64,000 bases of DNA, from the IMG/VR virus record IMGVR_UViG_3300010354_000044, positions 1-64,000 of that record, one strand, 5' to 3'. A program made the position numbers and the translations under genes. Under the pieces are notes generated by a model. It was not told where the DNA came from and did no database searches. It was given only the letters and a program-made list of their open reading frames with translations. This document shows, piece by piece, positions 37,118-64,000 of this stretch; the stretch's first letter is position 1, and each line of letters begins with the position of its first letter. Source of the DNA: a virus.

Positions 37118-37354
37118 ATGGTTTATGGCAAGCTTTTACTAGTTACTATTTTTGCTATGCTTTACCAACGATCTAAGGCTTCTAATCTGGCCCTACAACT
37201 TACATTGGTGTACATTATTGTAACTCTGAATTTTATATCAGCCGGTATTACTAATGCCGCGGCCACTAAAATAACAGCAGAACGTATGACGGGCCGGCCA
37301 TCGACCAATGAAGCTGTTACCTACAGGCATAAAACCACAACTCCTGCGTATTAA
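37118..37354 (+). CDS. Small hydrophobic protein
   Basis: Stop overlaps the giant gene's start (TAATG), suggesting translational coupling. Confidence 0.35.
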   Translation: MVYGKLLLVTIFAMLYQRSKASNLALQLTLVYIIVTLNFISAGITNAAATKITAERMTGRPSTNEAVTYRHKTTTPAY

Positions 37355-40300: not shown

Positions 40301-43300
40301 CCACTGGCCCTAGCTCAGAGCCTGGCACTGAGTTCTTCGAAATAAAAGTACCTGGAGAAGTCCGTAAGTACACAGGAGGTATGCTAGCTGTTGCCGGGCC
40401 TACCAAAGCAAAGCCAGGTCAGGGCGGCGGCCTAGAGCTAGAAATCCCCTGGTTAATAGAAACAGGAATTGGAGGTACAAGCCGGTCATCTTCCCTGACT
40501 AAGGGGCCTTGGTTAATGTACGACGGCGCCGGATTTGAAGCCTTTGGCACGGCTTTCAAAGCCAATTCTATGCTTTCACATCTCCAGAATGACAGCATCT
40601 TTGCCGTGATGAACCCGGGCGTTTTCAAGGCTTATAATTATGAATCTGGGCTGTCTATTCTACGGGATACTGCGTCTAGGCAAAGTCTACTGAATTTAAG
40701 TAGCGGCGATTTAAGTTTGATTCTGGGTATCGCGTTTTTACAAAAGAACACGGATACCCGTCTTCGGCAAGCCCTGGTCAATTACCTAGACAGTAACTCC
40801 AGTTCACTAGCAGTAAGCCCTTACTTACGAACGCTTATTCAAGATAAATCCTTTGGATCATCAGCGGCTAAGTTAGAAAACCTCTTACTAACAGCTCCTG
40901 ACTTAGCTACCTTAGTAGATAGTCCAACCCTTAGAGACTTTGGAGATAAATTAGCTGAGCAATTTGAGAGTGGGACTTTTGATATACAGAGCCGACTTGA
41001 AGCTATTGTTAATAGGGCTCTTAAAGGGTCTACGACTATTTATGAACAGATAGAAGGGGATGTACGGGGCATTCGCACGTTTGACGAGCGAAACTTTAGT
41101 GTACGTAGTGCCGGCATTTTAGCTGATATTATTCATACAACACAACAAACAATAGACCCAAGCCGTACTTTAGGTCGTATAACAGGCAGTAAACCCTTAA
41201 CAGGCCTTAACTTTATAGATGATCAAGGCCGCCCTAACGTTAGAAAATTTATAGATAACCGCGATTTCCGGGCTGCATCGTTAGACATGGCGCAAAAACT
41301 AAGGGTGCGCTCTCTGTTGCCCAATCAGAGTATTTTAGAGAGCTCTTTAAGTCAGCTCAGGGAGGGGGATGCTCTTTATAAGGACATAGAGAACCTGCTC
41401 TATGTTATCCATAGTTCGTTAATGGCGTCTCCCTACATTGAACGAGCCATTAATTTACTACCTAGTCGTGTTTTATACCCGGCAGGCTCTGAGGACGCTG
41501 TAGGCCTAGAATACCATTATTCTTTAAGCCTTAGTAAAAAAGAGTTTGCGGCCTTACGGGGGCAGGGGCTTGATATGGAAAGGTTCACCCAAGCCCAAGC
41601 TGCTTATAGCACTGTTGTAACCCATAGTGGTGTTAATGAAATTAGCCGTAGGATGGAGATTATATCTCCATTTGGTGTAGACCCAGCGCAGCGGAATTTA
41701 GGTCGTATCGTCTCGGCGCTTATACAGAATTACAATGAGATATCGGGTAAAGCTCAGTTTATTGGTAATGATAACCTTAGCCCCTTAGATGCTATTGTCC
41801 GTAGTATAAGCGCCGGGGATGAGACTGAGCTAAATAGCTTAATGTCCCGGTATCAACTTATTAATCAAGCCGTAAGGTATCATCGCGGCGTAGGCCCCTC
41901 TGACCAACAAAGTGCGGTTAATCTGATAAGTGCGGTTAATCTGATAACTGCGCTTAACCCGAGTCGGCTTGATTTAAGTCAAGCCACTGACGAGCAAATT
42001 AGAACCTTAGGAGCTTTATATAACCTAAGGGGCGATGTTACTACTATCCGGCAAAGGTTGTCGGAGTTAGGCCCTACGTTGGGCCGAGGTCTGCTTTATT
42101 TAGACCGCAGTGACAATCTATTTAGTGAAAGGCGCTTGGCTTTGTCTAAAGCCATTATAACCTACTCGGAGTTAAGACGAAATAAGGGGCTTACTGACTT
42201 AAGTTACAACCTAAGTCCTTATGCTGCTGACGTACAGTCTGCATTAGTAACTTCAAATGTTAATAGCTACAATATTGGGTTTCTTGAGTTTGAGCAGGCC
42301 TTAAATTTAGTCACAGACCAGTCCTCCGGACGCCTTGATGTTAGATACGCCGATAATAGGTCTACAAAGATACTTAATGTAGCCAGTAAATTGCAAGCTA
42401 ATGACGCTTTTGTAGAACGGCTAGCGTTGAACGCCGCGGGTACTAGCACTACAGATACGTTTATTAATTCTCTACAGCGAATAGTAGCCGGTACAGAGAA
42501 TATTCTTAAATTCTATGGAAAGGAGACTGAACAAGCCCAGAGAGCACTAAAACTTCGTAGTGAAGTTTACGATACAAAAACGTTGCTCCTACCTGCTATT
42601 GAAACATATACAGCGGGAGACGGGACTATTATAAAACTAGCTGAGTCAGATAGTAACGGAAAAGTACAGTATACAGATACTCCCGTAGTTCAACTAGGGT
42701 TGGATGTTCTAAGTCAAATACCTACTAGATTTGAATCTTACATTAATGAAGTTGTGGAACGCCAGCAACGTATTCGTGAGCTGATTCCTAAATTCCAGGA
42801 AGTGGTTAACCAATTACAGAAGGGCTTCATCTCTAATGCATCTGTCAGCGATATCAGCATTATAGAAGAGATGCAGCGATTAGCTTACGAAAGTCAACAT
42901 GATTTAGAATCTATTTTAACGTCTGTTCTGCAGCAGAATGCTGAGAACGAGAAGCGTAAATACCCTGGGGTGGCGTTTACAGCAGTAGCTGATTACTTAG
43001 CTACACCTACAGAGGCTTTTGTCGGTAAGCGAGTTACCTCCACTGGGTTAAACCAGGTAGTTAGGGATGCGAAAGCTACTTTAAACTCCCCGGAGCTGTC
43101 CAAGGTAGAAGTAGAAGCACTACAACGTATCGGCCAGTTAACCGGGTATGTCAACAGGGCTGGGGGCTTAAGCGGAGCAAGCCAGTCTACTAACATGCTC
43201 CATGATGTTAAGTCTCAGGCTATTCTAAAAGAACGTGGTCAGCTAGAGAATAATCAATTACAGCTATCTCTACAGGGTAATGAAACAGCCTTGATTGTTT

Positions 43301-46300
43301 CTATGTACGGACGATTCGGGGTCCATGGCGGTGACTTTGATGGTGACTCTTATCAGCTGATATTCGGATTTAGGGATATCCAAGAAAGCCTTGTCAAGGC
43401 TATTCAGCACCGCGATGCTATCCGTAATAGCCTGCTAAACCTACAGAGTCAATCTACTCTAAATTCAGATTACAATGTCGCTATTCAAGGTAGGATATCC
43501 AATCTACAGACAGCCCTTACCGCCAGCCAGCAGGACGTAGATAGGTTAATTACTGAGGTAGATAATCTAAGCACCATTACCGCCGACCGGGTTAAAGAGG
43601 GTATGCGTAGGCACGTAGCTGCTTTTACGGGTATTCCCTTGTCTTTGGCTCTAAAACCGGAATATTACAGCGATGAAGAAATCGCGTACATGATTGAACA
43701 GCAGCGAGGGGTTACTCCGGGTTTGACTGACGCCGGCGAGAAGTATGGCGATCAAATAACAAAGTTTACTCAGCTGTTTAACAGACTTAATCCAACCACT
43801 CTCGCTAGTGCCTCGGATGAGATTATTGATTCTGAAGCTAGCCGACTCAAGTTCAGCGCAGAGGAGCTTAGTCTCTTCAAGGAGTTTGCCCGCCAAGATA
43901 ATTTGTACGCGGACAATCTAACGGCTTCGGACCGTAACCGTTTATTTACCGAATCTATCACGTCTTATTTTAACCTGCACATGGGTTTATCTGAAGGGAA
44001 TAAATTTGCCCAGGCCGCCGCAGGTTCTGTATTGGATTTAGGAACCTTTGAGGTTCTCCAGACGGTAGTAGGTAATGTAGGGACATCCTTAATTGGTGAA
44101 GGCTATAACGCTATCACGACACTTATTGGCCGCAGTGTTCTAGCTAGAACTATGGGGCAGGCCTTAAATGACCCTACTACAAATATAGGCGAGGGAATCG
44201 TTCAAGCGCTGGATACCCTAAATACCAATAATACTTTAGACGATAATGTAACCCGTATCAAAGACTTATTTTCAGAAGGGCGATTAAAGCAAACGGCGGC
44301 GTTTGCCGAGTCCCGGGCCCAGCAGTTACAAATGAATTTAGGGCTTATCCAGCAAATCATCCGGGACTCGCTAAAGCCAAAACAAGAGGGAGGGACTATT
44401 GCGGCCATTGCGGAGCAGATGGGCGATGAAAGCTTTAAGACTAAGTTCCTTAACGAGCAAGATACGGACACGCGCATGGAGTTGTTGCGCAACTTCGTGT
44501 CCACCAGAGCGGTGACAACCATGGTTGGGAGTCAGACCTCTGGTAATACTTCCCTTATCAATACCTTCGGGGCTATCTTTTTATTAGCTGACTATACAAA
44601 GCTAGAGGACCCTACCTCTATGCTACGTAGTGATAGCCCTCGGTACGATACGCTGCGCCGCACCCAGCAACTATACAAATCAGCCGCAGAAGGGCTTGAC
44701 GTTAATCTTGAAAGTTTAGACGTTATCAGCCGCTTGAGACTCAAAGACAAAGAGTTTGTGGCCCGGATGGCGACAGATGAAGAATTTTTGGTACGTCAGA
44801 CAATAACTGATCTGATCAATACAGCGGTAGCTGAGGAGGCTTTCAATAAGTACTATGCTTATGGTCAAAGTGACGAATCTCTAATAAGCCGAGCTAACAT
44901 TGAGCGAGATAACTATATTAAAGCGTTATCCGACTCTAACCTTACAGGGGATAGCGGGCTGTACTTCAAGAACGAGCAGCACAGAGAAGCCGTCAGGAGA
45001 AGCCTCCATATAGATGGAAATACCGATGACTTTTTCTTTACGGCAGAGACGGCCCGGCAGTCCTTGTTAGACATAACTCTGGTGCGTAAAACCTTCCTGG
45101 GCATGACTGAGAGCGATGTAGAGTTCTCCCGGAAGGTCAATAGGGCCGGGTCCATTCTATCGCAGCCTGACATTAGTGCCAGTTTTGCCCCTTTTGCCAG
45201 TGCCCAGGCCGAGAACCTTGTAGCTATCCAACAATGGGCTAAGCGTGGTCGTATGGACGACCCTAGAGCCATGACTACATTTGAGATTGGTTCATCCGCA
45301 CGTTTATTTGACGCAATAGACCAGGTCCACCAGAATCTGACGGAGGAGTTTGGTTCTCTAGAAAACGCATTATCTAAACAGGAAGTATACGCAGCCTATT
45401 CTCAGATGGCCGAGCTCGCCGGCGTGTTTGATATTAGCAGGGAGGATAGTAATATTCTAAGCTTGGCGCTTCAGACAAGAGTTGAGGGCCGGCAGTCTAT
45501 ATTCTCAGAGTTAGCTAATTACAATGCCGGACTTGCTTATATGCAGGAACGTATTAACCAGCAACAGGATATTATTTCAAAAGGTACCTTAACTGATGCA
45601 GACGAAAGTCGGTTAAATACCCTTTACGCAGACCTAGAAGCTTTTGCCACCGGCTTAGATGCTAATGCCAATCAGAACGAGGCCTTCAGAGCTAAGGTAA
45701 GAGAGATTGGCGAGTTTCAGCGCTCCTTAAAAATGGACCAGGCTCAGCAGAGAAAGGCCACCTACGCCAATATTATTAATACAAAAATACATACACCTAC
45801 CTCCCTAGATGTTACTGGGTATGGGTTTAATAACACCTTGGAATTGTTTGCGGCCCCTATTATTGGGGCTGCGTTAATCCAAGGGGGACTTGACGAGCGG
45901 TTAGTCTCTGGGACTTACGATTTACTGCAGGGTCTGTCTACCGTTGAGGGTTCGGCCGGCAATGTAAGAGCACTAGAAGCTGACCGGTTATTTAGGTTGG
46001 CGCGCTTTAAAGAGCAAATGTTACAAGGGGAAAGTTTGCTTTTAGGTGCAACTCAAGCCCTAGCTGCCGAGACATTTTTCATGGGAACTGCGTCTTTAAT
46101 TGCCTCCAAATTACGTTCCCCCAACTCCCCCTCCCCTAACTCCCCTAACAATCGGCAGTCTGGTTTAAGTGGAATTATGGCCGAGGCAGTGGTTACAGCT
46201 GCTGCCTTGGCTTTTACTCGCCGGAACAACCAATATGGTATTGACGGAGAACCTTACCGAAATCTCGCTGCAGAGGCTCTATTACAGACAGCGGAAGCAA

Positions 46301-46509
46301 TAGAATCTAGCACCAGCGAATGGTTAGAACGTGCTATGGATATCCAGGTAGAAACGGAAGATCAAATTGTTACCTTTGATTTTGATCCTTCCATTGCCCC
46401 TAGTAGCTATGAAGAGCGTATTGTAACTGGCTGGATTGAGATGAGCATAGAAAACTCTGACGAATTTGCTAATGCTTATTATGAAACTGGGAATTATATT
46501 GATGGGTAA
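37354..46509 (+). CDS. Giant protein with single-chain two-barrel RNA polymerase motifs (putative virion RNAP, possibly tape-measure-fused)
   Basis: GGDFDGDS (DFDGD at 43333-43347) preceded by VNRAG and KRKYPG; upstream R..TKG and VMNPG; downstream LIGEGYN and IRDSLK. Confidence 0.8.
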   Translation: MSLFPEYNIYGPDSLGRDVQRLIDSEADPESIARRQLTLPNLEAEREVAAFRLNYGEVHTKPGNRYNILGQKLYDPLPTAVEGRLATGNLQANITQDRTIQLRGLEVINTLNSGLGGTAAPALSNRQGSMANRFTKTTVFDSLVGPSDTNILRGLVNSPVFEEPVTVRPTTQDISNQLVFPTQQRTNYSSHLGAFAHKNVNEQGVQELYNSVVNLQNSLGNAITSIERQYAQQMVNGRIERVLVGVRVGIRNYNDLYDGLGLYSQASYPGVQRAHYFNFTVNRNNQVIETSTNRLITGSLISQNSGHISNMGGRNSAYNTVLGLLSSYARSAEIEAKYGVTHSLFNIMVARQDYSSLGRVFAEMLIQRDQSTIVNQGNKFRETLELLLSTTNNKGLSSIVENTVDRIARQGLDYYTTIGALLDKDVLEQQINKLYSYRKQQLLKAFEPITSHVGGINETFGLAVDTTLRNLNELVANDAEQFSIPINGRRVTIAGFEDLKMAALSLSPSEHAHYDFRKNQASSSILQLLMSPFLMPHETGFSGSQAAARLGFYHMVETRGGRNMYEIYPAVYRHGFGGTKPGEYIKLISAQSAKSSLFKYTSHLYNFTGAKKVVEFFETRTVFEGMPALRYSSLKEVREHLQSINYTSADEIIKNYKTRMHLGADEEDDTEILLLPFRKAEQISQRLKNLLGGRPMLELNTTFRQAILKQDKEALLNLFERNEFGDLYLSANALAGEVPANLNKIQYDRLILERNRIIKRLGYEGRALSDSEKLILSTELVKAMRAAELDIFDGGGFVQGRRTRRVAVAMGVNTLSDFMLVNNDYLQASSFGYMHVSNQKIAITHTLKTDKVGTIRQPDPLFDAKVNFIASAFRPGTIVYLQPKALENEKVKDSLSRLAAKLRSEYLAKNLDSRYLDAQVTQALLQSFPALDSVSFTDGELTTVMLKAGAYQFTNDSINFLGALEGSRIRLGLMNKGGRFNLTTGPSSEPGTEFFEIKVPGEVRKYTGGMLAVAGPTKAKPGQGGGLELEIPWLIETGIGGTSRSSSLTKGPWLMYDGAGFEAFGTAFKANSMLSHLQNDSIFAVMNPGVFKAYNYESGLSILRDTASRQSLLNLSSGDLSLILGIAFLQKNTDTRLRQALVNYLDSNSSSLAVSPYLRTLIQDKSFGSSAAKLENLLLTAPDLATLVDSPTLRDFGDKLAEQFESGTFDIQSRLEAIVNRALKGSTTIYEQIEGDVRGIRTFDERNFSVRSAGILADIIHTTQQTIDPSRTLGRITGSKPLTGLNFIDDQGRPNVRKFIDNRDFRAASLDMAQKLRVRSLLPNQSILESSLSQLREGDALYKDIENLLYVIHSSLMASPYIERAINLLPSRVLYPAGSEDAVGLEYHYSLSLSKKEFAALRGQGLDMERFTQAQAAYSTVVTHSGVNEISRRMEIISPFGVDPAQRNLGRIVSALIQNYNEISGKAQFIGNDNLSPLDAIVRSISAGDETELNSLMSRYQLINQAVRYHRGVGPSDQQSAVNLISAVNLITALNPSRLDLSQATDEQIRTLGALYNLRGDVTTIRQRLSELGPTLGRGLLYLDRSDNLFSERRLALSKAIITYSELRRNKGLTDLSYNLSPYAADVQSALVTSNVNSYNIGFLEFEQALNLVTDQSSGRLDVRYADNRSTKILNVASKLQANDAFVERLALNAAGTSTTDTFINSLQRIVAGTENILKFYGKETEQAQRALKLRSEVYDTKTLLLPAIETYTAGDGTIIKLAESDSNGKVQYTDTPVVQLGLDVLSQIPTRFESYINEVVERQQRIRELIPKFQEVVNQLQKGFISNASVSDISIIEEMQRLAYESQHDLESILTSVLQQNAENEKRKYPGVAFTAVADYLATPTEAFVGKRVTSTGLNQVVRDAKATLNSPELSKVEVEALQRIGQLTGYVNRAGGLSGASQSTNMLHDVKSQAILKERGQLENNQLQLSLQGNETALIVSMYGRFGVHGGDFDGDSYQLIFGFRDIQESLVKAIQHRDAIRNSLLNLQSQSTLNSDYNVAIQGRISNLQTALTASQQDVDRLITEVDNLSTITADRVKEGMRRHVAAFTGIPLSLALKPEYYSDEEIAYMIEQQRGVTPGLTDAGEKYGDQITKFTQLFNRLNPTTLASASDEIIDSEASRLKFSAEELSLFKEFARQDNLYADNLTASDRNRLFTESITSYFNLHMGLSEGNKFAQAAAGSVLDLGTFEVLQTVVGNVGTSLIGEGYNAITTLIGRSVLARTMGQALNDPTTNIGEGIVQALDTLNTNNTLDDNVTRIKDLFSEGRLKQTAAFAESRAQQLQMNLGLIQQIIRDSLKPKQEGGTIAAIAEQMGDESFKTKFLNEQDTDTRMELLRNFVSTRAVTTMVGSQTSGNTSLINTFGAIFLLADYTKLEDPTSMLRSDSPRYDTLRRTQQLYKSAAEGLDVNLESLDVISRLRLKDKEFVARMATDEEFLVRQTITDLINTAVAEEAFNKYYAYGQSDESLISRANIERDNYIKALSDSNLTGDSGLYFKNEQHREAVRRSLHIDGNTDDFFFTAETARQSLLDITLVRKTFLGMTESDVEFSRKVNRAGSILSQPDISASFAPFASAQAENLVAIQQWAKRGRMDDPRAMTTFEIGSSARLFDAIDQVHQNLTEEFGSLENALSKQEVYAAYSQMAELAGVFDISREDSNILSLALQTRVEGRQSIFSELANYNAGLAYMQERINQQQDIISKGTLTDADESRLNTLYADLEAFATGLDANANQNEAFRAKVREIGEFQRSLKMDQAQQRKATYANIINTKIHTPTSLDVTGYGFNNTLELFAAPIIGAALIQGGLDERLVSGTYDLLQGLSTVEGSAGNVRALEADRLFRLARFKEQMLQGESLLLGATQALAAETFFMGTASLIASKLRSPNSPSPNSPNNRQSGLSGIMAEAVVTAAALAFTRRNNQYGIDGEPYRNLAAEALLQTAEAIESSTSEWLERAMDIQVETEDQIVTFDFDPSIAPSSYEERIVTGWIEMSIENSDEFANAYYETGNYIDG
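41911..41946 (+). repeat. 18-bp tandem duplication (SAVNLI x2) inside the giant gene
   Basis: AGTGCGGTTAATCTGATA twice, followed by a degenerate third copy. Confidence 0.8.
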
Positions 46510-55411: not shown

Positions 55412-57948
55412 TGTTTACGTTCCCTACTGGATTATTTGCAGGGGCCCGTCCCGACTACGGAGACAACCTAGCTTTAATTGTTGAGACGGATAATATACCA
55501 TTTTCCAGTGGCAGTCCATCAACAAGTGTACAATTTAGGTTACCTTTAGCATTTCAAACCAGTTACAATTTTACTATTGATTGGGGGGATGCCGTTGTAG
55601 AAACTATTGTAACAAGTGGTATAAGCTCACAACCGGTTCATACCTACCCTAGTGCGGGTGTTTATACTATAAAAATTAGAGAAAACGTTACTAATGGATT
55701 TCCTACGTTAAGGTTTACTAATACTGGTGACCGATTTAAATTAATTGAACTTGCTAATTGGGGTAACTGTACCTGGACTACATTTGAATCAGCGTTTTAC
55801 GGGTGTGCAAACCTCGTCATTACTGCTTTAGATAGCCTAACAGCAAAAACAGGACTCGTTACAAGTTTTAGAGACGCGTGGAGGGGGTGTACTAATTTAA
55901 GAACATTTCCGAATATTGATGTATCAAGTGGTACAAACTTTAGAGATGCTTGGTCCGGTTGTAATAAATTAATTGAATTTCCTGCTCTTAATTTTGTCTC
56001 AGGGGTAGACTTTAGGGGTACTTGGTGGGGTTGTCGGGGATTAACTACATTTCCAACTGTTAATTTTCCGGCAGGGGTGGATTTTAGTAATGCTTGGTAC
56101 GATTGTCAAGGTCTACTCAACTTTCCGAATATTTCGTTTCCAGTGGCAACTGTGTTTACCGCAGCCTGGAAATTTTGCTCTAATCTAGTTAGCTTTCCAA
56201 TCACTGATTTTCCGTCTGGTATATTATTTACTGAAGCTTGGAGTCATTGTTATTTCTTAAGCAGTTTCCCGTCTGCTAACTTCCCAAATGCTACTGATTT
56301 TAAGTATGCATGGTATAGTTGCTATAGATTACAGAGCTTTCTTACCACTAATTTTCCTGCCGCTATAGATTTTAACCGGGCATGGGCTTATTGTGGTCTC
56401 TTGCCAGACTTTCCTCTTATAAATGTACCTAACGCTTCGGGTTTTCAATTAACATGGTTCAACTGCACTAGTTTAACTACTTTCCCGCCCATTAGCTTTC
56501 CTAAAGGTACTGAATTCTCCAACGCTTGGGGTGGTTGTACTGGACTAACGAGCTTTCCTGCCCTTAACTTTCCAGTTGCCACAAATCTTGCCGGCGCATG
56601 GTCTGAGTGTACTAGCCTAACTAGTTTTCCTGTTATTACAGCTCCATTAGCTACTACATTTAATTATGCCTGGGCAGATTGCAGCAGCCTAACCAGCTTT
56701 CCCATTATCGAGTTTCCTCAAGCGACTATCCTTTCACGCGCTTGGCTTAACTGCACTAGTTTAACTACTTTTCCAACTCTTAACTTTCCTGTAGCTACCG
56801 ATTTTGTAGAGACGTGGAGAAACTGTAGTAGTTTAGCAACGTTTCCACTTATTAGTTTCCCAGCGGCTATAAGTTTCTACAGAGCATGGAGTCTCTGTAC
56901 TAGCCTTACAACCTTTCCCGCAATTGATTTCGCTACAGCTACGAGTCTTGATGAGGCGTGGGCAGGATGCACAAGATTAACAAGTTTCCCTCTAATTAAT
57001 ACCCCTAATGTTAGTGGCTTTAGTAGTACATGGGTTGACTGCACAGGTCTAAACAACATTGACTTTCCACTTATTAACATGGGAGTTATGATATCCGGAT
57101 ATGACTGCTTCACCGGCGTCAGTCTATCAACCCAGTCCTACTCCAATTTGTTAATTGACATTAACACTAGAAATAGCCGATCAAATGTTAGCTTTGATGC
57201 CGGCGGCAGCACGTACAATACGAACGCAGCTACCGCCCGCGCTGCTTTAGTCTCCCGTGGGTGGTTGATAACTGACGGAGGGCCTATTGATCCAGATCCT
57301 TTTTATGACAATGTTTCGTTGCTATTGCTTGGAAATGGTACTAACAATCTAGCTAATTTCAGAGATTCAGGGCCGGCGCGTAGATCCGTGACCGTATCCA
57401 GCGGGAATCCAGTAATTACTACCTCTCAATTCAAATATGGCAATGGGTCTATAACCGGCGGTAGGATTGAAGTCCCGTATAGCCCCGCCTTTGATTGGGG
57501 GACTGGAGACTTTACCATTGAATTTTGGTTCAGATGGAGCGGAACGCTCAGTTCTGAGTTTAGGTTCTGCGTAGGCGGTACTCCTCCCTGTTTCGGCTTT
57601 GGAAGTAGAAGCTCTGGAGGCCGTGTCATCGGCCTAGTTCAAGAAAATGTGGCGTGGGATGTTGAGATCCCATGGACTCCAGTAGGGTCAGGTACTTGGT
57701 TCCATCTTGCCCTAGTTAGGGCAAATGGTGTTGTAACTATCTTCCAGAATGGCGTAAGTATCGGATCTCAGGCTAATACCCGAAACTGGACTATGAACAA
57801 CAGTGTATTTGTTATAATGCCTGATACGCTCATAGCCTCTAGCGGCGCCTGGTTTGATGACTTCAGAGCAACCGAAGGCGTAGCCCGGTACACGTCAAAC
57901 TTTACACCACCGAGTACAGAGTTACCCGACGAGGGTGATTTACCTTAG
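55411..57948 (+). CDS. Receptor-binding protein: PKD-like + BspA/DUF285-type leucine-rich repeats + LamG/ConA domain
   Basis: IDWGD...HTY...GVYTIKI; about 17 repeats of 24 aa (FPxINFPxATxFxxAWxxCTSLTS); GTGDFTIEFW...WFHLALVR...DDFRAT.GVARY. Confidence 0.85.
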   Translation: MFTFPTGLFAGARPDYGDNLALIVETDNIPFSSGSPSTSVQFRLPLAFQTSYNFTIDWGDAVVETIVTSGISSQPVHTYPSAGVYTIKIRENVTNGFPTLRFTNTGDRFKLIELANWGNCTWTTFESAFYGCANLVITALDSLTAKTGLVTSFRDAWRGCTNLRTFPNIDVSSGTNFRDAWSGCNKLIEFPALNFVSGVDFRGTWWGCRGLTTFPTVNFPAGVDFSNAWYDCQGLLNFPNISFPVATVFTAAWKFCSNLVSFPITDFPSGILFTEAWSHCYFLSSFPSANFPNATDFKYAWYSCYRLQSFLTTNFPAAIDFNRAWAYCGLLPDFPLINVPNASGFQLTWFNCTSLTTFPPISFPKGTEFSNAWGGCTGLTSFPALNFPVATNLAGAWSECTSLTSFPVITAPLATTFNYAWADCSSLTSFPIIEFPQATILSRAWLNCTSLTTFPTLNFPVATDFVETWRNCSSLATFPLISFPAAISFYRAWSLCTSLTTFPAIDFATATSLDEAWAGCTRLTSFPLINTPNVSGFSSTWVDCTGLNNIDFPLINMGVMISGYDCFTGVSLSTQSYSNLLIDINTRNSRSNVSFDAGGSTYNTNAATARAALVSRGWLITDGGPIDPDPFYDNVSLLLLGNGTNNLANFRDSGPARRSVTVSSGNPVITTSQFKYGNGSITGGRIEVPYSPAFDWGTGDFTIEFWFRWSGTLSSEFRFCVGGTPPCFGFGSRSSGGRVIGLVQENVAWDVEIPWTPVGSGTWFHLALVRANGVVTIFQNGVSIGSQANTRNWTMNNSVFVIMPDTLIASSGAWFDDFRATEGVARYTSNFTPPSTELPDEGDLP

Positions 57949-58250
57949 GTAAGGCCAATCCTATCGTCTATGGCCTGCAGTAATGTATAGAGCACTGAAA
58001 GCTGGTTTATCTCAAACGGAGTTAGGCCGCGATCGTACATCGCCCTAATCTGATGAATGACGAGGTCTAGCCGTTGCATCGTATAGAATTCAATCAAAAG
58101 CTGAACAGCCAGATCCTGCGTTAGGCCATGGGTCTCGGATAACTGCTTGAGGGCTGTGAACGTAGGGCTGGTGAGTGCCAGTCGGTCATACTCGTACCTA
58201 CCGTTTGTCTTGCTTCTTGCTAACCGCTGTGGTTTTCCTGTTGCAGCCAT
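57945..58250 (-). CDS. Small putative DNA-binding protein (RHH-like)
   Basis: RLALT..TF.ALK.LS..HGLT....V.LLI pattern. Confidence 0.45.
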   Translation of the reverse strand: MAATGKPQRLARSKTNGRYEYDRLALTSPTFTALKQLSETHGLTQDLAVQLLIEFYTMQRLDLVIHQIRAMYDRGLTPFEINQLSVLYTLLQAIDDRIGLT

Positions 58251-58462
58251 ACTTGCTCCTCCTCTTCTTCAGTTCCTACAAAAGACTCATCGCAGTTTAA
58301 ATAAACATTCCTACCATCTATACGAATATCACCGGCGCTTTTAATGGTTATATGCGCACGGTCTATGATTATCTGTGTAGAGCTATTTTGTATGCAAAGT
58401 GTATGCTTATGTACGCGCACATAGTCTAATAAACGCCACAATCTTATTACTTTCTGTATCAT
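58220..58462 (-). CDS. Small spike-like beta-strand protein
   Basis: IIIDRAHITIKSAGDIRIDGRNVYLN resembles gpV/gp45 spike C-termini; adjacent to PAAR. Confidence 0.45.
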   Translation of the reverse strand: MIQKVIRLWRLLDYVRVHKHTLCIQNSSTQIIIDRAHITIKSAGDIRIDGRNVYLNCDESFVGTEEEEEQVWLQQENHSG

Positions 58463-58471
58463 GTTATATGC

Positions 58472-58726
58472 TTATTGTACAAAAACTGTATTAGAGCCTT
58501 GGATGCAAACGCCGCCCCCACTATTCCTATCCATCTTCCGATGCGCCCGCCGACCTTCTATGTAAACCCGGCTTGATCCTGTGGTAGCTACAAAGCGCAC
58601 AAGCCTATCGCCTACCGTAGCCGCTTTGCGGTTATTGACAAAGGTGCGTTTGCTTCTGCATCGGGTAATAGGTCTAATCCCGCGCCAGGTTACCTCTAGG
58701 TCCCCTAATCTAGCTTGTGGTTTCAT
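58472..58726 (-). CDS. PAAR-like spike tip protein (T4 gp5.4-like)
   Basis: QARLGD...TFVNNRKAATVGD...GSSRVYIEG...GSNTVFV; ATG at 58726 preferred. Confidence 0.8.
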   Translation of the reverse strand: MKPQARLGDLEVTWRGIRPITRCRSKRTFVNNRKAATVGDRLVRFVATTGSSRVYIEGRRAHRKMDRNSGGGVCIQGSNTVFVQ

Positions 58727-59546
58727 TTTGTATAGGTTGGTATAGAGTATTATCAATTAGATTTTGAAGGGCTATTGATTTACATTCCTCAATTAGCCGA
58801 CTCTCTAGGCTGAGATCAATGGTAGGGATATCTCGGTGCTCATAGTTATCCAAATCAGCGGACCAATAGTCTCCTATCTCTTGATCCGTTGCCAAGGTCT
58901 GAATAGATGTTAGGGCAAATTGTTCTACGGTCTGCGTCGTTTGGGTAACTCCGTAAATAACCCTATTAGGTAATTTCCGGATAGTCGCTAGACTCAAGGG
59001 TCTATAGAGGGCTATGTTTGCAGGCGTCTCCTGGGCTGGTACAGTATCACTTAGTAACGTCCGCCTGCGCTGCTCTGCTAGGATAGCCTCTTTTTCGTCT
59101 GCATAGGGCTGTCCAGAATACCCAAAAGAGTAATGCTTTAAGTTTAGTGTCTGACTCTCATAGACAACATCAGTATCTGCCCAGAGTTCGTTAAGCCCTC
59201 GCCCATTAACCCTTCCTGTGTAGGCTTCTTCAATTAAACTCTCGGGCGCGGTAATAGGTTCAGTAAATACAGAGGCACTGCTTGTAAAATAAAATAGCCG
59301 AATATCTAAGTTACCAATGTTTAGAGTTAATTTAGGAATAAACGGTCTATTGGCTAAGCGATCGTAGGATTGGATTCGGACGATAGCGCCCTGCTCAAGA
59401 CGGAGTTCAAACTGCATCTGCTGGTATACTAACCCCCCGCCATATTGCTCTTGTTGGCTATACAGCGGGCGGGCTAAGTCCGGCAGATTCAAGTCCTTGG
59501 TTACAATAATCATATAGAAATATCTGCGGTACTTTGGGTTTAGCAC
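58710..59546 (-). CDS. Hypothetical protein
   Basis: 278-aa ORF upstream of PAAR. Confidence 0.55.
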   Translation of the reverse strand: MLNPKYRRYFYMIIVTKDLNLPDLARPLYSQQEQYGGGLVYQQMQFELRLEQGAIVRIQSYDRLANRPFIPKLTLNIGNLDIRLFYFTSSASVFTEPITAPESLIEEAYTGRVNGRGLNELWADTDVVYESQTLNLKHYSFGYSGQPYADEKEAILAEQRRRTLLSDTVPAQETPANIALYRPLSLATIRKLPNRVIYGVTQTTQTVEQFALTSIQTLATDQEIGDYWSADLDNYEHRDIPTIDLSLESRLIEECKSIALQNLIDNTLYQPIQNETTS

Positions 59547-59572
59547 CGCAGATATAACGCAGACTATCCAAC

Positions 59573-59887
59573 TCAGAAGTCTAATTCCTGAGCCGCTGGA
59601 AGTGTAACCCCCTTGGAGGCCTTTACGGACTTATCCGCAACAGGCCTTGGCGTCTCTTTTACTACCGGCTCTTGTATAGCAACGGTGCTGCTGCGCGATC
59701 GCTCCACCGCGGCGTTAGTAGGAGGGGCTGTTGACTGAGGTTTATCTAAATAATCCCACGAGACCGTAAGCATAAACTCAAAGACATCGGCCCAGTTTAG
59801 CCTGGCGCGGCGCCTGTTTTCTTGCAGCCGGGTTTTTAATGCTTTTAAACCCTCTACAATCTTTAGGTCCGATATCCTATAGTTCAT
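59573..59887 (-). CDS. Putative ParR-like adaptor
   Basis: Small gene coupled (ATGA) downstream of parM; helical N-terminus, low-complexity tail ending ELDF. Confidence 0.45.
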   Translation of the reverse strand: MNYRISDLKIVEGLKALKTRLQENRRRARLNWADVFEFMLTVSWDYLDKPQSTAPPTNAAVERSRSSTVAIQEPVVKETPRPVADKSVKASKGVTLPAAQELDF

Positions 59888-60972: not shown

Positions 60973-61055
60973 ATATATATATAACTGAATTCGACTTATT
61001 AGAGTATACCTAAATTACCTAAAACTTGCACCTTACTTACATACAAAACTCACCC

Positions 61056-61078
61056 AGCCGCTCTTGAGCGGCTTTTTT
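61056..61078 (+). terminator. Intrinsic terminator
   Basis: AGCCGCTC-TT-GAGCGGCT followed by TTTTT. Confidence 0.7.
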
Positions 61079-61397
61079 ATTTGTACTTGCCCAACTTGTA
61101 TGGGTACAAATTTCCAGCATTAACCCTACAAAGAGAGATGGCTGCGACCAGCAGGGTAAAGGGGCAAAGGAGTAAAGCTAGTTGCACTCTTACAACTACC
61201 GAGGAATCGTCGGTAGTTAACCCCCCATCTGCTGGTAAAGGAGGGTGGAGTAAAGAGATTAAAAAGACTAAAGAGACTAAGTATAAATACCTAGAAGGCG
61301 CTATAGCGAAAAAATGGCGCGGATTTTAAGTGGGTAGTTATGGGTCTAATGGACATCCCCCCTCGGGTGTGGAATGAGAAATGAAGACCTGCTTCAA

Positions 61398-61431
61398 AAG
61401 ACCTTGCCGAGTGGTCTTAAAAAATGCTCGG
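61398..61431 (+). ncRNA. H-type pseudoknot, divergent relative of the repeated module A
   Basis: S1 AAGACC/GGTCTT, S2 CCGAGT/GCTCGG, A-rich loop AAAAAAT. Confidence 0.5.
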
Positions 61432-61485
61432 ACGGTTTGCCTAGTCCGCTAAAGCTAGGTTGCTGTCGATTCCCAAGGAGGGAAT

Positions 61486-61668
61486 ATGTCTAAAGTAACT
61501 CTAACTGCCGCAACTCTCGTAGTCCTTCTAGGGCTAGGAGGTTGTATGGAGCAGGAGTCTAGCTCCTGCTCGGTCAACGAGCAGGGGGCAGTAGTGAGCG
61601 AGGGGCACGACTGCCCCTCCTCCCATGACCGATTCCCCCGGCGCCGCCAAGGGCCTGGGACCTGGTAA
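61486..61668 (+). CDS. Small lipoprotein
   Basis: AAGGAGG SD; signal peptide with lipobox LGLGG-C. Confidence 0.65.
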   Translation: MSKVTLTAATLVVLLGLGGCMEQESSSCSVNEQGAVVSEGHDCPSSHDRFPRRRQGPGTW

Positions 61669-61674
61669 CTAAGA

Positions 61675-61859
61675 TGACCTACTACAGGGGTCATTAAATA
61701 AGCTGTAGTTCCCTACCCTGGTGGGCTTGGTGCGGTCCGATTCCGCACTAGGGTTTTGCCTTGAATTTCTTTCTCCAAGGATATTCACACAGGTACTTAG
61801 AGTACAGGCGAAATCTTGTGTATGGATGCCTTTATGCCTACACAAGCTAGGAGAAAAAG
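61675..61859 (+). ncRNA. Intergenic RNA cassette 1: pseudoknot (61675-61709) + tRNA-like element (61710-61754) + leader (61758-61859)
   Basis: Repeated modules; stems read directly from the sequence. Confidence 0.8.
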
Positions 61860-62189
61860 ATGGATTTCAACTTCGTTGACTATAACGGTGCCGACCTCGC
61901 TGGTGAAGACCTCACCGGCGCCAACCTCGTCTGCGCCAACCTTAGCGGCGCCGACCTTACCGGTGCCGACCTCAGCGGTGCCGACCTCGGCGGCGCCAAC
62001 TTTGACGGTGCCAACCTCACCGGCGCCAACCTCACCGGTGCTGACCTCTTTGACACTGTCATCACTAACGCGAACTTTAGCGGTGCTAACCTCAGCGGTG
62101 CTAACCTTAGCCTCGTTGATTTTATTAACTGCAATCTGGTTGGCACCAATTTCGCCGGTGCCAACCTCTACGGCCTCCGCGTTAGCTAA
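61860..62189 (+). CDS. Pentapeptide repeat protein
   Basis: Tandem A(D/N)LxG repeats; AGGAGA SD. Confidence 0.9.
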   Translation: MDFNFVDYNGADLAGEDLTGANLVCANLSGADLTGADLSGADLGGANFDGANLTGANLTGADLFDTVITNANFSGANLSGANLSLVDFINCNLVGTNFAGANLYGLRVS

Positions 62190-62194
62190 CTAAA

Positions 62195-62336
62195 CGACCT
62201 ACTACAGGGGTCACTAAATAAGCTGTAGTGCCCTACACCCAATACAAGGGGGTGCCTGGTAGGTTCGACTCCTACCTAGGGTCTGTCAACAATGCTCTTC
62301 GTTTTGTTGACGATTTTTTAACCATAAGGAGGAAAT
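62195..62336 (+). ncRNA. Intergenic RNA cassette 2: pseudoknot (62195-62229) + tRNA-like element (62230-62282) + hairpin/T-run leader
   Basis: Canonical T-loop GG-TTCGACT-CC; GTCAACAA/TTGTTGAC hairpin, then TTTTTT and AAGGAGG. Confidence 0.8.
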
Positions 62337-62738
62337 ATGGCAAGTGTTGACTCTTGGGCTGCAGAGATGCAGTTCAAGGCCCTGTGCAAAAAACGGGGCA
62401 TTAAGTTAGTGGCGATATCTGCAAAGGTATTGCCACAGGGGTTACGGTTTGTCGGAAAGCGTAAGCTAGAAAACGCTTTCCGACATTTAAGACTTGCTCA
62501 CCCGAGTGGGCAATTTCCAGCCGGCGAGGTCCTGGACCTCGTCTTTTCTCTGGACGCGGTTATCCAGTACCGCGGTCAGGTAATTGGGGTTGATGTGACG
62601 ATGGACCCCAGCCAGGTTGCAGCTAAAGAAGAGAAGCTGCGCTCTTTGGCCAAAGCGCACGCTGCGATCGGGATTCAACGCTCAGTGACTTACTGCAGCA
62701 CGATTGAATCCTTTGACGAATGGCTGCTGCGCCTATAA
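62337..62738 (+). CDS. Hypothetical protein, possible PD-(D/E)XK-like nuclease fold
   Basis: E...LD...LDAVI...IGVDVT...K pattern; strong SD. Confidence 0.55.
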   Translation: MASVDSWAAEMQFKALCKKRGIKLVAISAKVLPQGLRFVGKRKLENAFRHLRLAHPSGQFPAGEVLDLVFSLDAVIQYRGQVIGVDVTMDPSQVAAKEEKLRSLAKAHAAIGIQRSVTYCSTIESFDEWLLRL

Positions 62739-62885
62739 CCCTGCCCCGGTGGGCTACTCATGGTTCAACTCCATGACAGGGCATTGCCTTGAATTCCTTT
62801 CTCCAGGAATTTTCACTCAGGTACTTAGAGTACAGGCGCAATCTTGTGTATGGATGCCTTTATGCCTACACAAGCTAGGAGAAAC
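62738..62885 (+). ncRNA. Intergenic RNA cassette 3: tRNA-like element (62738-62782) + leader, no pseudoknot
   Basis: CCCTG/CAGGG, CCC-CGGT-GGG, TCATGG-TTCAACT-CCATGA; leader near-identical to cassette 1. Confidence 0.8.
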
Positions 62886-63488
62886 ATGGCTGTACGTCGC
62901 GAATTTCAAGTCCTCTCTGCCATTAGCAGTGAAGAGGACGTGTTCGACAATCTCCTGCCCGTGCGGGATATAATCTCAGGCCTAGAAGGCCTGCTATTGT
63001 GTAGTGAGGCCTGTACGTGGCCTCAGGATTTGGTTTACGAAGCAACCTGGCTTGAGGGGTGCTATACTCCTCGGGCAGTTAAGGATGACCCTAGGCTGGC
63101 ACTAGGGTTTCATCCCTATACCGAGACACGGTGGAAATACCACTCAGGCGTCTTACGCCTGAGTACGCAGACTACGGAGGGGTGGATTTCGGTTATCAAA
63201 CGTACTAAACGGGCCATGATGGCCTATCTGGAAGGTATTCATCTTCCAGAGGTAGACCTCTGCGGGGTAGACCTTTGGAAGGCTGACCTTCGGGGGGCAA
63301 ACCTTCAGGGGGCAGACCTCAGGGGAGCTGACCTCCGAAGGGCTAACCTTCAAGGGGCTGACCTTCAAGGGGCTGACCTTCGAGGAGCTAAGCTTCTAGA
63401 GGCCAACCTTCTAGAGGCTGACCTTCGGGGAGCCGACCTTTGGGGGGCTTTAGTAGAGAAGGCCACCCTACAAAAGGCGAAGACCTAA
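62886..63488 (+). CDS. Protein with C-terminal pentapeptide repeats (true start 62886, MAVRREF...)
   Basis: ADLRGANLQG repeats; SD AGGAGA precedes ATG 62886, whereas the track start 62844 lies in the repeated leader. Confidence 0.85.
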   Translation: MAVRREFQVLSAISSEEDVFDNLLPVRDIISGLEGLLLCSEACTWPQDLVYEATWLEGCYTPRAVKDDPRLALGFHPYTETRWKYHSGVLRLSTQTTEGWISVIKRTKRAMMAYLEGIHLPEVDLCGVDLWKADLRGANLQGADLRGADLRRANLQGADLQGADLRGAKLLEANLLEADLRGADLWGALVEKATLQKAKT

Positions 63489-63503
63489 AGTTACTTCCCT
63501 GCT

Positions 63504-63685
63504 TGACCTACTACAGGGGTCATTAAATAAGCTGTAGTGCCCTACTCTGGTGAGCTAGGTGCGGTCCGATTCCGCACTAGGGTTTTGCTTTGTCTATTTA
63601 TCTCCATTTAGACACACAGGTACTTAGAGTACAGGCGCAATCTTACTTGGGACGCCTTTATGCCCTTGTAAGCTAGGAGAACATC
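63504..63685 (+). ncRNA. Intergenic RNA cassette 4: pseudoknot (63504-63538) + tRNA-like element (63539-63583) + leader (63587-63685)
   Basis: Same modules with compensatory changes. Confidence 0.8.
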
Positions 63686-64000
63686 ATGTCTATTATCAAA
63701 CAGACTTCTTCAGTAGTCCCGACTATTGAGGAAGCAACTGCCCTAGCATGCACCCTACGGATGCAGGGGATACCCTGCTATGTGGGGAAAGTTGGAACCC
63801 ACTACCGGGTAGACCCGGCTCTTCCCAAGCAGTACAAGAAACGGGCTAGTAAGAGACCTGCCCGGGACTACATTTCCCTCCTAGGAGGGGATGACTGGTG
63901 CCTTAAGGCGCCGACCAAAGTCCCAAAAACGGGAGACTGGGTGGATTGTACCCCCGAAATGGGGGTGGCGGCCTGCCAGGCCGCTTTGGCAGAGAGGGAC
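63686..64000 (+). CDS. Hypothetical protein, runs off the right edge of the window
   Basis: AGGAGA SD, then ATG 63686 (MSIIKQTSSVVPTIEEA...), open to the window end. Confidence 0.7.
   Translation, partial: MSIIKQTSSVVPTIEEATALACTLRMQGIPCYVGKVGTHYRVDPALPKQYKKRASKRPARDYISLLGGDDWCLKAPTKVPKTGDWVDCTPEMGVAACQAALAERD

What the first reader, a model, noticed from the sequence alone, without database searches (positions are those of the whole stretch)
61398..63685. Modular RNA cassette (pseudoknot, tRNA mimic, RBS-locking leader) between every accessory gene: candidate mRNA processing system
Seen: four consecutive intergenic spaces are built from three modules in fixed order: A+B+C (61675), A+B+other (62195), B+C (62738), A+B+C (63504). 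Module A begins 5-15 nt after the upstream stop, B abuts A with no spacer, and C ends at the next SD/ATG. Established: RNase P and RNase Z recognise a ~12-bp acceptor/T-arm helix; in eukaryotic MALAT1 a tRNA-like element directs cleavage that leaves a structure-protected 3' end. Inference: host RNase P/Z cut the polycistronic transcript into single-gene mRNAs, each ending in a protective pseudoknot and starting with a regulated leader, and release ~45-53-nt tRNA mimics. The repeats could also serve as recombination joints that shuffle cargo genes. I do not recognise this tripartite arrangement as a described bacterial or phage system.
Basis: partly seen in the sequence, partly recalled or inferred. 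Interest (0 to 1): 0.92.

Follow-up and report, generated by a model that had tools for sequence, protein, structure and literature searches.

The report
RNA punctuation cassettes in cyanophage operon
The gaps between the small accessory genes of an uncultured freshwater cyanophage are built from a kit of conserved RNA folds: a compact pseudoknot, a tRNA look-alike without an anticodon arm, and a leader that can hide the ribosome-binding site. These folds most likely control where the long message is cut, how long the pieces last and how they are translated, but no RNA data yet prove this.

Summary
The system runs from a conserved promoter-like motif (61281) to the start of a giant gene (65417), beyond the window end.

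All three modules are sense-strand RNA structures kept by compensatory changes. They recur in a relative whose neighbouring ParM-like protein is only 47-49% identical, and none of its cargo genes resembles g1-g7. No Rfam family, tRNA finder or paper in the searched library (open-access PubMed Central and bioRxiv) describes them.

B has the 11-12 bp acceptor/T-arm stack and T-loop that RNase P and RNase Z recognise. The phage's real tRNA genes lack encoded CCA, and the phage encodes a CCA-adding-type enzyme.

A is not tied to B: A+B occurs only in this phage, the relative has B+C without A, and four A copies sit directly before another leader type. A also resembles the T4 gene 32 operator pseudoknot in topology.

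Earlier agents of this scan noted tRNA-like minihelices between genes in at least eight other phage genomes. This is therefore a new cyanophage variant of a recurring, apparently unpublished class.

Interest is high. The mechanism is about 45% likely.

The parts
61281..61296 (+). Conserved promoter-like motif (TATAAAT core) at the head of the array
   Evidence: Near-identical in the window, L021 and L023. It has a single good copy in the genome. Promoter function is inferred.
61399..61431 (+). Module A variant (H-type pseudoknot) in the leader of g1
   Evidence: S1 is GACC/GGUC plus an A-U closing pair. S2 is CCGAG/CUCGG. Conserved in L021.
61429..61485 (+). Leader type C' ending in the SD and ATG of g1
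   Evidence: Four copies in the genome: 61433, 64246, 64692 and 65359. Its hairpin shows three double changes between copies (read).
61486..61668 (+). g1, 60 aa, lipoprotein-like signal
   Evidence: ORF list. There is a homologue in L021. No Pfam or PHROG family.
61675..61709 (+). Module A copy 1: pseudoknot with S1 of 5 bp, S2 of 7 bp and a UUAAAUA loop
   Evidence: S2 of 7 bp; shuffle p 0.002.
61710..61754 (+). Module B copy 1: tRNA-like three-way junction (acceptor-like stem, mini hairpin, T-arm)
   Evidence: The T-loop has C at position 55. A competing terminator-like fold exists.
61755..61859 (+). Module C copy 1: P1-P2-P3 junction plus P4 hairpin, then the SD
   Evidence: The P2 loop UCUCC is complementary to GGAGA of the SD.
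61860..62189 (+). g2, pentapeptide-repeat protein, 109 aa
   Evidence: Pfam PF00805, E 1.8e-31.
62195..62229 (+). Module A copy 2
62230..62282 (+). Module B copy 2, with a canonical T-loop and a 6+6 bp stack including G.U at 1-72
   Evidence: (27.9 bits).
62285..62319 (+). Terminator-like A/T-rich hairpin plus T-run, the 'other' module before g3
   Evidence: Read. Function is inferred.
62337..62738 (+). g3, 133 aa, ORFan
   Evidence: No homologue other than itself among 5.8 billion proteins.
62738..62782 (+). Module B copy 3, overlapping the stop codon of g3; no A upstream
62783..62885 (+). Module C copy 2
62886..63488 (+). g4, 200 aa, with C-terminal pentapeptide repeats
   Evidence: Pfam PF00805, E 9.9e-32.
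63504..63538 (+). Module A copy 3
63539..63583 (+). Module B copy 4; its mini hairpin carries a compensatory change relative to copy 1
63584..63685 (+). Module C copy 3
63686..64000 (+). g5 (runs to genome position 64084). The array continues to 65416 with A copies at 64093, 64212, 64658 and 65325, the D element, long hairpins and C' leaders.

Best explanation
The stretch is one co-oriented early or accessory operon of a freshwater cyanomyovirus: a promoter-like motif at 61281, seven small genes, then a giant helicase/NADAR/macro gene. Its spacers are assembled from portable cis-acting RNA modules.

B is a tRNA mimic with an 11-12 bp acceptor/T-arm stack, a T-loop and no anticodon arm. It most likely serves as a punctuation mark. 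Host RNase P would cut at its 5' edge and RNase Z, or another 3' maturation route, after its discriminator base. That would split the polycistronic RNA into single-gene messages.

Where A lies flush against B, the upstream message would end inside the 3' strand of a compact H-type pseudoknot, leaving 3'-to-5' exonucleases no single-stranded end to start on. Where A lies directly before a leader, the same knot would cap the 5' side or bind a regulator.

C and C' are translational leaders. In C the loop of hairpin P2 is complementary to the SD, so the fold can hide or release the ribosome-binding site.

Because the modules are repeated and outlast their cargo, they also act as homologous joints at which genes are swapped.

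Shown: the positions, the folds, their covariation, the strand bias and the conservation across unrelated cargo. Inferred: every enzymatic step.
For: Structure of B:
- 83 of 84 stem cells are standard pairs, and 7 of 14 pairs show changes on both sides.
- 5 of 6 copies fold by MFE into the same three-way junction.

Structure of C:
- All 5 copies give the same P1/P2/P3+P4 architecture with different stem sequences.
- The anti-SD:SD pairing is chosen by RNAalifold in 5 of 5 copies.

Structure of A:
- The fifth S1 pair occurs as U-A, C-G, A-U and G-C.
- S2 has five different sequences.
- I read the 65325 copy as keeping S2 only through G.U pairs (from the sequence).

Strand: + strand folds are more stable in 7 of 8 gaps, sum -527 against -483 kcal/mol, with 59 against 37 G.U pairs.

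Conservation:
- L023, whose ParM-like protein is 47-49% identical, carries B+C twice and A plus the gap-5 element once.
- None of its five array proteins matches g1-g7.

tRNA context:
- All five real phage tRNA genes lack encoded CCA.
- The phage encodes a PolyA_pol/CCA-adding-type protein at 78611-79321.
- Cyanobacteria possess RNase P, Z, E, J, PNPase and RNase II/R (PMC10989914).
- The base before B is U in the three A+B copies. U at -1 is the preferred base for bacterial RNase P (own knowledge).

Not a tRNA fragment: the 24-nt 3' half shared by B2 and L023 B2 occurs in none of 185,579 species genomes.
Against:
- A and B are separable. L023 has B without A, and four A copies precede C' in fixed register.
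- The A+B junction is effectively one or two independent observations, because the three copies are near-identical.
- B1 and B4 have C where tRNAs have U55.
- B1 has a competing hairpin plus U-run fold that scans as a terminator.
- A cut at B3 would fall at the g3 stop codon.
- Only two relatives carry recognisable modules, so covariation rests on 5-10 sequences, many of them paralogues.
Confidence: 0.45

Rival explanations
1. A, and perhaps B and C, are operators for a phage RNA-binding regulator. A would work like the T4 gene 32 operator, in which a 5' pseudoknot nucleates binding next to UUAAA repeats and the RBS. Alternatively it would work like a nut/put-type antitermination site that lets RNA polymerase read through the terminator-like hairpins to the giant gene. 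No cleavage is needed.
For: - S1 and the UUAAAUA loop of A are nearly invariant while S2 varies freely, which is typical of sequence-specific recognition on a structural scaffold.
- The T4 leader read here has the same H-type topology: S1 of 4 bp, a 1-nt loop and S2 of 7 bp, followed by UUAAA repeats and the SD (PMC535899).
- Four A copies lie about 55 nt before start codons in fixed register with C'.
- Terminator-like hairpins lie in gaps 2 and 7.
Against: - No gp32 family protein in the genome, although that search's controls were blank.
- Eight copies before unrelated genes is unlike an autoregulatory site.
- Three copies lie 6-15 nt after a stop codon and about 150 nt from the next start.
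- This reading does not explain the tRNA-like shape of B.
Confidence: 0.2
2. The modules matter mainly as DNA. They would be repeated joints for homologous recombination that shuffle cargo genes, as PeSL cassettes do in T4-type phages, and their RNA folds would be secondary.
For: - The modules are conserved between phages whose cargo genes are all unrelated.
- Copies within the genome are far more alike (A 97-100%, C 84-93%) than copies between phages, which indicates concerted evolution.
- The contig of the 92% relative breaks inside A.
- PeSL precedent: PMC2839356 and PMC4122927.
Against: - Recombination needs identity, not base pairing. It does not explain the compensatory changes, the G.U bias to one strand, the T-loop consensus or the anti-SD loop.
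- No sigma-70-type promoter is found in the spacers on the + strand, so they are not PeSLs in the defined sense.
- This reading is compatible with the best explanation as a side effect.
Confidence: 0.12
3. A is a promoter for a phage-specific polymerase, or a weak host promoter, with TGACC as the upstream element and TTAAAT as the -10-like element. B plus its U-run is a terminator. Each gene would then be its own transcription unit.
For: - TTGACC followed by 15 nt and TAAATA occurs at 63503 and 65324.
- B1 and B4 are followed by UUUUGC and scan as terminators.
- An earlier first-stage note (e1-5731867) read the A copies before the giant gene as promoter-like palindromes.
Against: - The spacing and hexamers are poor for sigma-70, and the scan finds none.
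- The -35-like TTGACC is present in only 2 of 9 copies.
- The S1 closing pair and S2 covary, and I read one S2 as needing G.U pairs, which a duplex promoter does not need.
- The U-run after B is absent in B2, B3 and both L023 copies.
Confidence: 0.08
4. B elements are decayed tRNA genes or attP-like tRNA fragments with no present function.
For: The T-arm and acceptor features are tRNA-derived in appearance. The phage carries real tRNA genes elsewhere.
Against: - Both strands of the acceptor-like stem are kept with compensatory changes.
- A fixed position directly before C is kept in 5 of 6 copies in two phages.
- No match of the 3' half in 185,579 genomes.
- ARAGORN and the Rfam tRNA model find nothing.
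Confidence: 0.03

Closest known systems
t-elements of plant mitochondria and haloarchaea; the mitochondrial tRNA punctuation model
   Same: tRNA-like folds (or tRNAs) lie between coding regions of one transcript and are taken as cut sites for RNase P and RNase Z, which defines mRNA ends (Forner et al. 2007, PMC1920247, listed; the rest is own knowledge).
   Different: Here the setting is a phage of bacteria, the elements have no anticodon arm, they are repeated four times in 2 kb, they are combined with a pseudoknot and a leader, and cleavage is not shown.
MALAT1 / MEN-beta 3'-end module (triple helix plus mascRNA-type tRNA-like element)
   Same: A compact, A-rich-loop tertiary structure lies directly upstream of a tRNA-like element. 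An RNase P cut would therefore leave a structured, protected 3' end and release a small tRNA mimic (own knowledge; no phage example found).
   Different: The protective fold is an H-type pseudoknot, not a U-rich ENE with an A-tract triple helix. The host is a bacterium. A is separable from B. The phage also encodes its own CCA-adding-type enzyme.
PeSL regulatory cassettes of T4-type phages
   Same: Short conserved composite cassettes lie between small non-essential genes of a plastic region, flank unrelated cargo and are implicated in modular shuffling (PMC2839356, PMC4122927).
   Different: PeSLs are a sigma-70 early promoter plus a terminator stem-loop. Here no promoter is detectable in the spacers, and the modules are covarying RNA folds, one of them tRNA-like.
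T4 gene 32 translational operator
   Same: H-type pseudoknot of the same size and topology, with the UUAAA motif and a downstream RBS (PMC535899).
   Different: In T4 the UUAAA repeats follow the knot, whereas here the motif is the knot's third loop. There are eight copies before unrelated genes, and no gp32 homologue was found.
Upstream pseudoknot domain plus tRNA-like structure at the 3' end of tobamo/tymovirus RNAs
   Same: Pseudoknot(s) lie immediately 5' of a tRNA-like structure at the end of a coding region, stabilising the RNA and engaging tRNA enzymes (own knowledge).
   Different: Those are RNA-virus genome termini with aminoacylatable CCA ends. Here the elements are internal to a DNA-phage transcript and lack CCA.

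Membership tests
Genuine tRNA gene | Cloverleaf with D arm and anticodon arm, recognised by tRNA finders | tested here: not met
   ARAGORN finds none in the window or in L021-L023 and L044. The Rfam tRNA model gives no hit even at E<=10.
tRNA-like processing signal (t-element type) | Coaxial acceptor/T-stem stack of about 12 bp | tested here: met
   5-7 bp acceptor-like stem plus 5-6 bp T-stem gives 11-12 bp in all six copies.
tRNA-like processing signal (t-element type) | 7-nt T-loop of tRNA consensus closed by G-C | tested here: met
   Four of six copies have the U-U-C-R-A consensus. Two have C at position 55.
tRNA-like processing signal (t-element type) | Lies between cistrons of one co-oriented transcript | tested here: met
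   All genes from 61486 to 73942 are on the + strand, with one promoter-like motif upstream. Co-transcription itself is inferred.
tRNA-like processing signal (t-element type) | Cleaved by RNase P and/or RNase Z in vivo or in vitro | not testable with these tools
No biochemical tool is available.
MALAT1-type 3'-end module | U-rich ENE and A-rich tract forming a triple helix | tested here: not met
   Module A is an H-type pseudoknot with a UUAAAUA loop. No U-rich internal loops are present.
MALAT1-type 3'-end module | tRNA-like element immediately downstream of the protective fold | tested here: met
   Zero spacer between A and B at 61709/61710, 62229/62230 and 63538/63539. The three copies are near-identical, and the junction is absent in L023.
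PeSL cassette | Strong sigma-70-like early promoter inside the cassette | tested here: not met
   No + strand promoter-like site in the spacers.
PeSL cassette | Conserved cassette flanking unrelated, swappable genes | tested here: met
   Modules are shared with L023, while all cargo proteins are unrelated.
T4 gene 32-type operator | Pseudoknot plus UUAAA element upstream of the RBS | tested here: inconclusive
   The topology and motif are alike, but the motif lies inside the knot and only 4 of 8 copies are near an RBS.
T4 gene 32-type operator | Cognate gp32-family protein encoded by the phage | tested here: not met
   PF08804 is not found in the 172-kb record. The controls were also blank, so this is weak evidence.
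Intrinsic terminator | G+C-rich hairpin followed directly by a U-run, conserved among copies | tested here: not met
   Only B1 is listed as terminator-like by the scan. B1 and B4 carry UUUUGC, and the U-run is absent after B2, B3 and the two L023 copies.
Any Rfam family | Match at or near the gathering score | tested here: not met
   No hit at gathering score in the window. The best hit at E<=10 is 21.6 bits against a cut-off of 70.

The most novel reading that the evidence does not exclude
A bacteriophage uses a portable 'end-maker' cassette analogous to the eukaryotic MALAT1 system. Host RNase P cuts at a tRNA mimic and leaves each accessory-gene mRNA capped by a flush pseudoknot. RNase Z releases the 45-65-nt mimic, which the phage's own CCA-adding-type enzyme may tag. 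The downstream message begins with a switchable leader. Any cargo gene dropped between two cassettes then acquires defined ends, stability and translational control.
Probability: 0.3. Interest if true: 0.9.

Novelty: new variant of a known kind. Interest (0 to 1): 0.78.

Why it matters
If the cuts occur, this would extend the tRNA-punctuation logic of mitochondria and the RNase P-made protected 3' ends of MALAT1 to phages of bacteria. It would show that phages recruit the host's tRNA-maturation enzymes to process mRNAs.

It would also define a compact, portable set of parts (end-maker, stabiliser, translational switch) for expressing arbitrary genes in cyanobacteria.

The modules are better conserved than the genes they flank. 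They therefore offer a handle for finding fast-evolving accessory or anti-defence gene arrays in uncultured cyanophages. They also add at least three structured-RNA families that are absent from Rfam.

Together with the similar elements noted by this scan in other phage lineages, it suggests a widespread mode of phage gene expression that I did not find described in the papers searched.

Tried and rejected
- Rfam at gathering score and at permissive E-values on the window, the downstream 2 kb and the relatives gave nothing.
- ARAGORN gave nothing.
- Pattern scans for A, C, C' and the gap-5 element gave only chance hits. These covered IMG/VR, JGI metagenomes (one plant-like chance hit) and 185,579 species genomes. 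The 18 hits are 17 copies of one unrelated sequence plus one other unrelated sequence.
- blastn against 50,697 phage records matched only the pentapeptide-repeat coding region.
- The covariance model of B found nothing in Ma-LMM01 or the Microcoleus phage.
- Protein routes to more relatives:
  - The ParM-like protein gave L021, L022, L023 and L044. L022 has no array next to the gene, and the upstream region of L044 is not recognisably similar.
  - g3 is an ORFan.
  - The N-terminus of the giant protein returned only generic RecD-like helicases.
- Stop-codon read-through or frameshift stimulation by A is rejected, because the next in-frame stop follows two codons after the g1 stop.
- An integron attC reading is rejected. 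No core-site motif was seen after the stop codons, and neither flanking gene (ParM-like, giant helicase gene) is an integrase. The rest of the genome was not searched for one.
- A MITE or dispersed-repeat reading is rejected, because the modules occur on one strand in one operon only.
- The phage encodes no RNase Z-like protein.
It was repeated by reference.
Full report
**Context.** The window is the first 64 kb of a 171,984-bp IMG/VR virus record. Its major head protein is about 30% identical to those of the Microcystis phages Ma-LMM01 and MaMV and of a Microcoleus phage. Structural genes have PHROG matches. The cyanobacterial HIP1 octamer is about fourfold enriched, and two array genes encode pentapeptide-repeat proteins. 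I read it as an uncultured freshwater cyanomyovirus.

The finding lies in a + strand array:
- g1: 61486-61668
- g2: 61860-62189
- g3: 62337-62738
- g4: 62886-63488
- g5: 63686-64084
- g6: 64299-64526
- g7: 64750-65175
- a 2,841-codon gene: 65417-73942

 Pfam finds an SF1 helicase, NADAR and a macro domain in the giant gene. Upstream, on the other strand, lies a ParM/Alp7A-like gene.

**Observation.** The repeat finder and direct reading confirm the modules, their order and their junctions.
- A is a 35-nt H-type pseudoknot. S1 is four invariant pairs plus a covarying fifth. One nucleotide separates S1 from S2. S2 is 4-7 bp. The third loop is nearly invariant and A/U-rich.
- B is a 45-65-nt three-way junction. 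It has an acceptor-like stem, a small hairpin, and a 5-6 bp T-stem with a 7-nt T-loop.
- C is about 100 nt. A closing stem P1 encloses hairpins P2 and P3. Then come hairpin P4 with a conserved loop, the SD and the start codon.

The elements are confined to 61.3-65.4 kb. Loose motif scans of the whole genome find A only there, apart from one loose match on the opposite strand near 73.7 kb. T-arm-like hairpins are found there and in the five real tRNA genes, with 7 other weaker matches in the rest of the genome. A covariance model of B finds exactly the four copies in 172 kb.

Beyond the window the same kit continues. Gap 5 has A, a further conserved element ('D'), a second A and a different leader, C'. 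Gaps 6 and 7 have very stable long hairpins (z -6.8 and -8.9), then A, then C'. The leader of g1 is also A plus C'.

**Are they RNA structures?** Yes, with good support.
- **B:** 83 of 84 stem cells are standard pairs. Seven of 14 pairs show double-sided changes, with three different T-stem sequences. Five of six copies fold on their own into the same junction.
- **C:** All five copies give the same architecture with different P2, P3 and P4 sequences. The P2 loop is complementary to the SD in all five, and RNAalifold selects that pairing.
- **A:** The fifth S1 pair occurs as U-A, C-G, A-U and G-C. S2 has five unrelated sequences. By my reading of the sequence, one copy keeps S2 only through G.U pairs and one has an A.C mismatch.
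- **Strand:** The + strand folds better in 7 of 8 gaps and uses more G.U pairs.

**Relatives.** Pattern scans of IMG/VR, JGI metagenomes and 185,579 genomes found no relatives. Homologues of the ParM-like protein led to three useful contigs.
- **L021** (92% identical) has the same promoter-like motif, the A+C' leader and g1. It breaks inside the next A.
- **L023** (47-49% identical) has an array of five small genes. Its gaps are B+C, B+C, and A plus the D element plus a clear intrinsic terminator.
- **L044** (38% identical) is not recognisably similar upstream.

None of the L023 array proteins resembles g1-g7, and g3 has no homologue anywhere. The spacers are therefore better conserved than the genes. 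They behave as a scaffold into which cargo is swapped.

**What B looks like.** The acceptor-like stem and T-stem stack to 11-12 bp, the length that RNase P, RNase Z and CCA-adding enzymes measure on tRNA (established knowledge). Four T-loops are canonical, and two have C at position 55. Five of six copies carry a GG a few nucleotides before the T-stem, which could mimic the D-loop contact. That point is speculative.

There is no encoded CCA, and the phage's five real tRNA genes lack it too. This fits the RNase Z plus CCA-addition route of 3' maturation (own knowledge). Cyanobacteria carry RNase Z (PMC10989914), and the phage encodes a PolyA_pol-family nucleotidyltransferase. The 3' half of B2 is not a copy of any sampled tRNA gene, and tRNA finders reject all copies.

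**Mechanism.** I favour tRNA-type punctuation, at about 45%. RNase P would cut before B and RNase Z after it. The upstream mRNA would end 0-45 nt after its stop codon. Where A is present, that end would sit inside a helix of a compact knot. The downstream mRNA would begin with C, whose anti-SD loop can mask the SD.

- A and B are separable.
- The flush A-B junction is seen only in near-identical copies of one phage.
- Half of the A copies sit in fixed register before C', like a 5' UTR element.
- A cut at B3 would fall at the g3 stop codon.

**Rivals.**
1. **A as a protein operator or antitermination site.** The T4 gene 32 leader, read here, has the same knot topology followed by UUAAA repeats and the RBS. 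No gp32 homologue was found.
2. **DNA recombination joints of the PeSL kind**. This fits the cargo turnover and the within-genome homogenisation of A and C. It does not explain the pairing constraints, and no promoters are found in the spacers.
3. **Promoter plus terminator units.** The hexamers and spacing are poor, the U-run is not conserved, and covariation argues against it.
4. **Decayed tRNA genes.** Selection on both stem strands and the fixed position argue against it.

**Novelty.** I found no paper describing tRNA-like punctuation in phage operons. The large survey of viral structured RNAs mentions tRNA-like candidates only generically (PMC10690425). Earlier agents of this scan noted anticodon-less tRNA-like minihelices between genes in at least eight other phage genomes. 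I could not check those notes. If they hold, this is a cyanophage variant of a recurring, unpublished class. It is distinguished by the flush pseudoknot, the switch-like leader and the demonstrably unrelated cargo.

Noticed in passing
window 61281-61296; L021 about 413-398 (-); L023 about 2537-2522 (-): A 16-nt motif with a TATAAAT core is conserved at the head of the array in three phages whose flanking sequence differs. It is probably the operon's promoter. It has only one good copy in the genome.
   Followed up: partly
window 61130-61280: The region upstream of that motif carries several GTAAAG-type repeats and a long imperfect hairpin. The 92% relative has a different sequence there, also with TAAAG repeats. 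It may be an upstream regulatory or protein-binding region.
   Followed up: no
window 61052-61079: A + strand intrinsic-terminator-like hairpin with a T-run lies between the ParM-like gene and the array, although no + strand gene lies just upstream. It is conserved in L021.
   Followed up: no
genome 64093-64212 (L020:4093-4212); L023 about 1226-1095 (-): The 'D element' is an A-type pseudoknot followed by three hairpins and an invariant 12-nt single-stranded stretch starting with TTAAAT. It is conserved with compensatory changes between two phages downstream of unrelated genes, and has no Rfam match.
   Followed up: partly
genome 65417-73942 (L020:5417-13942): One 2,841-codon ORF with an SF1B helicase near the N-terminus and NADAR plus macro domains at the C-terminus. 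About 1,800 central residues have no Pfam match. An earlier first-stage note proposes a two-barrel RNA polymerase there.
   Followed up: partly
genome 78611-79321 (L020:18611-19321): The phage encodes a PolyA_pol-family (CCA-adding-type) nucleotidyltransferase of 236 aa. All five phage tRNA genes (94-120 kb) lack encoded CCA.
   Followed up: partly
genome 74873-75283 (L020:14873-15283): A 400-nt non-coding stretch after the gene that follows the giant ORF. It contains a 19-nt segment nearly identical to the 5' half of module B (74974-74992) but has no T-arm, and it also carries terminator-like hairpins.
   Followed up: no
genome 64527-64657 and 65176-65315: Gaps 6 and 7 share a CTGCGCC-containing module and form very stable long hairpins (z -6.8 and -8.9). 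The one in gap 7 is followed by a U-rich tract, like a strong terminator, just before the giant gene's A+C' leader.
   Followed up: partly
window 37354-46509: A 3,051-codon ORF on the + strand next to the structural module. It was not examined.
   Followed up: no
window 57945-59887 and L021, L044: The genes downstream of the ParM-like gene (about 100 aa, about 270 aa, a PAAR-motif protein and two small ORFs) keep their order in relatives down to 38% ParM identity, while the divergent array on the other side is replaced.
   Followed up: no
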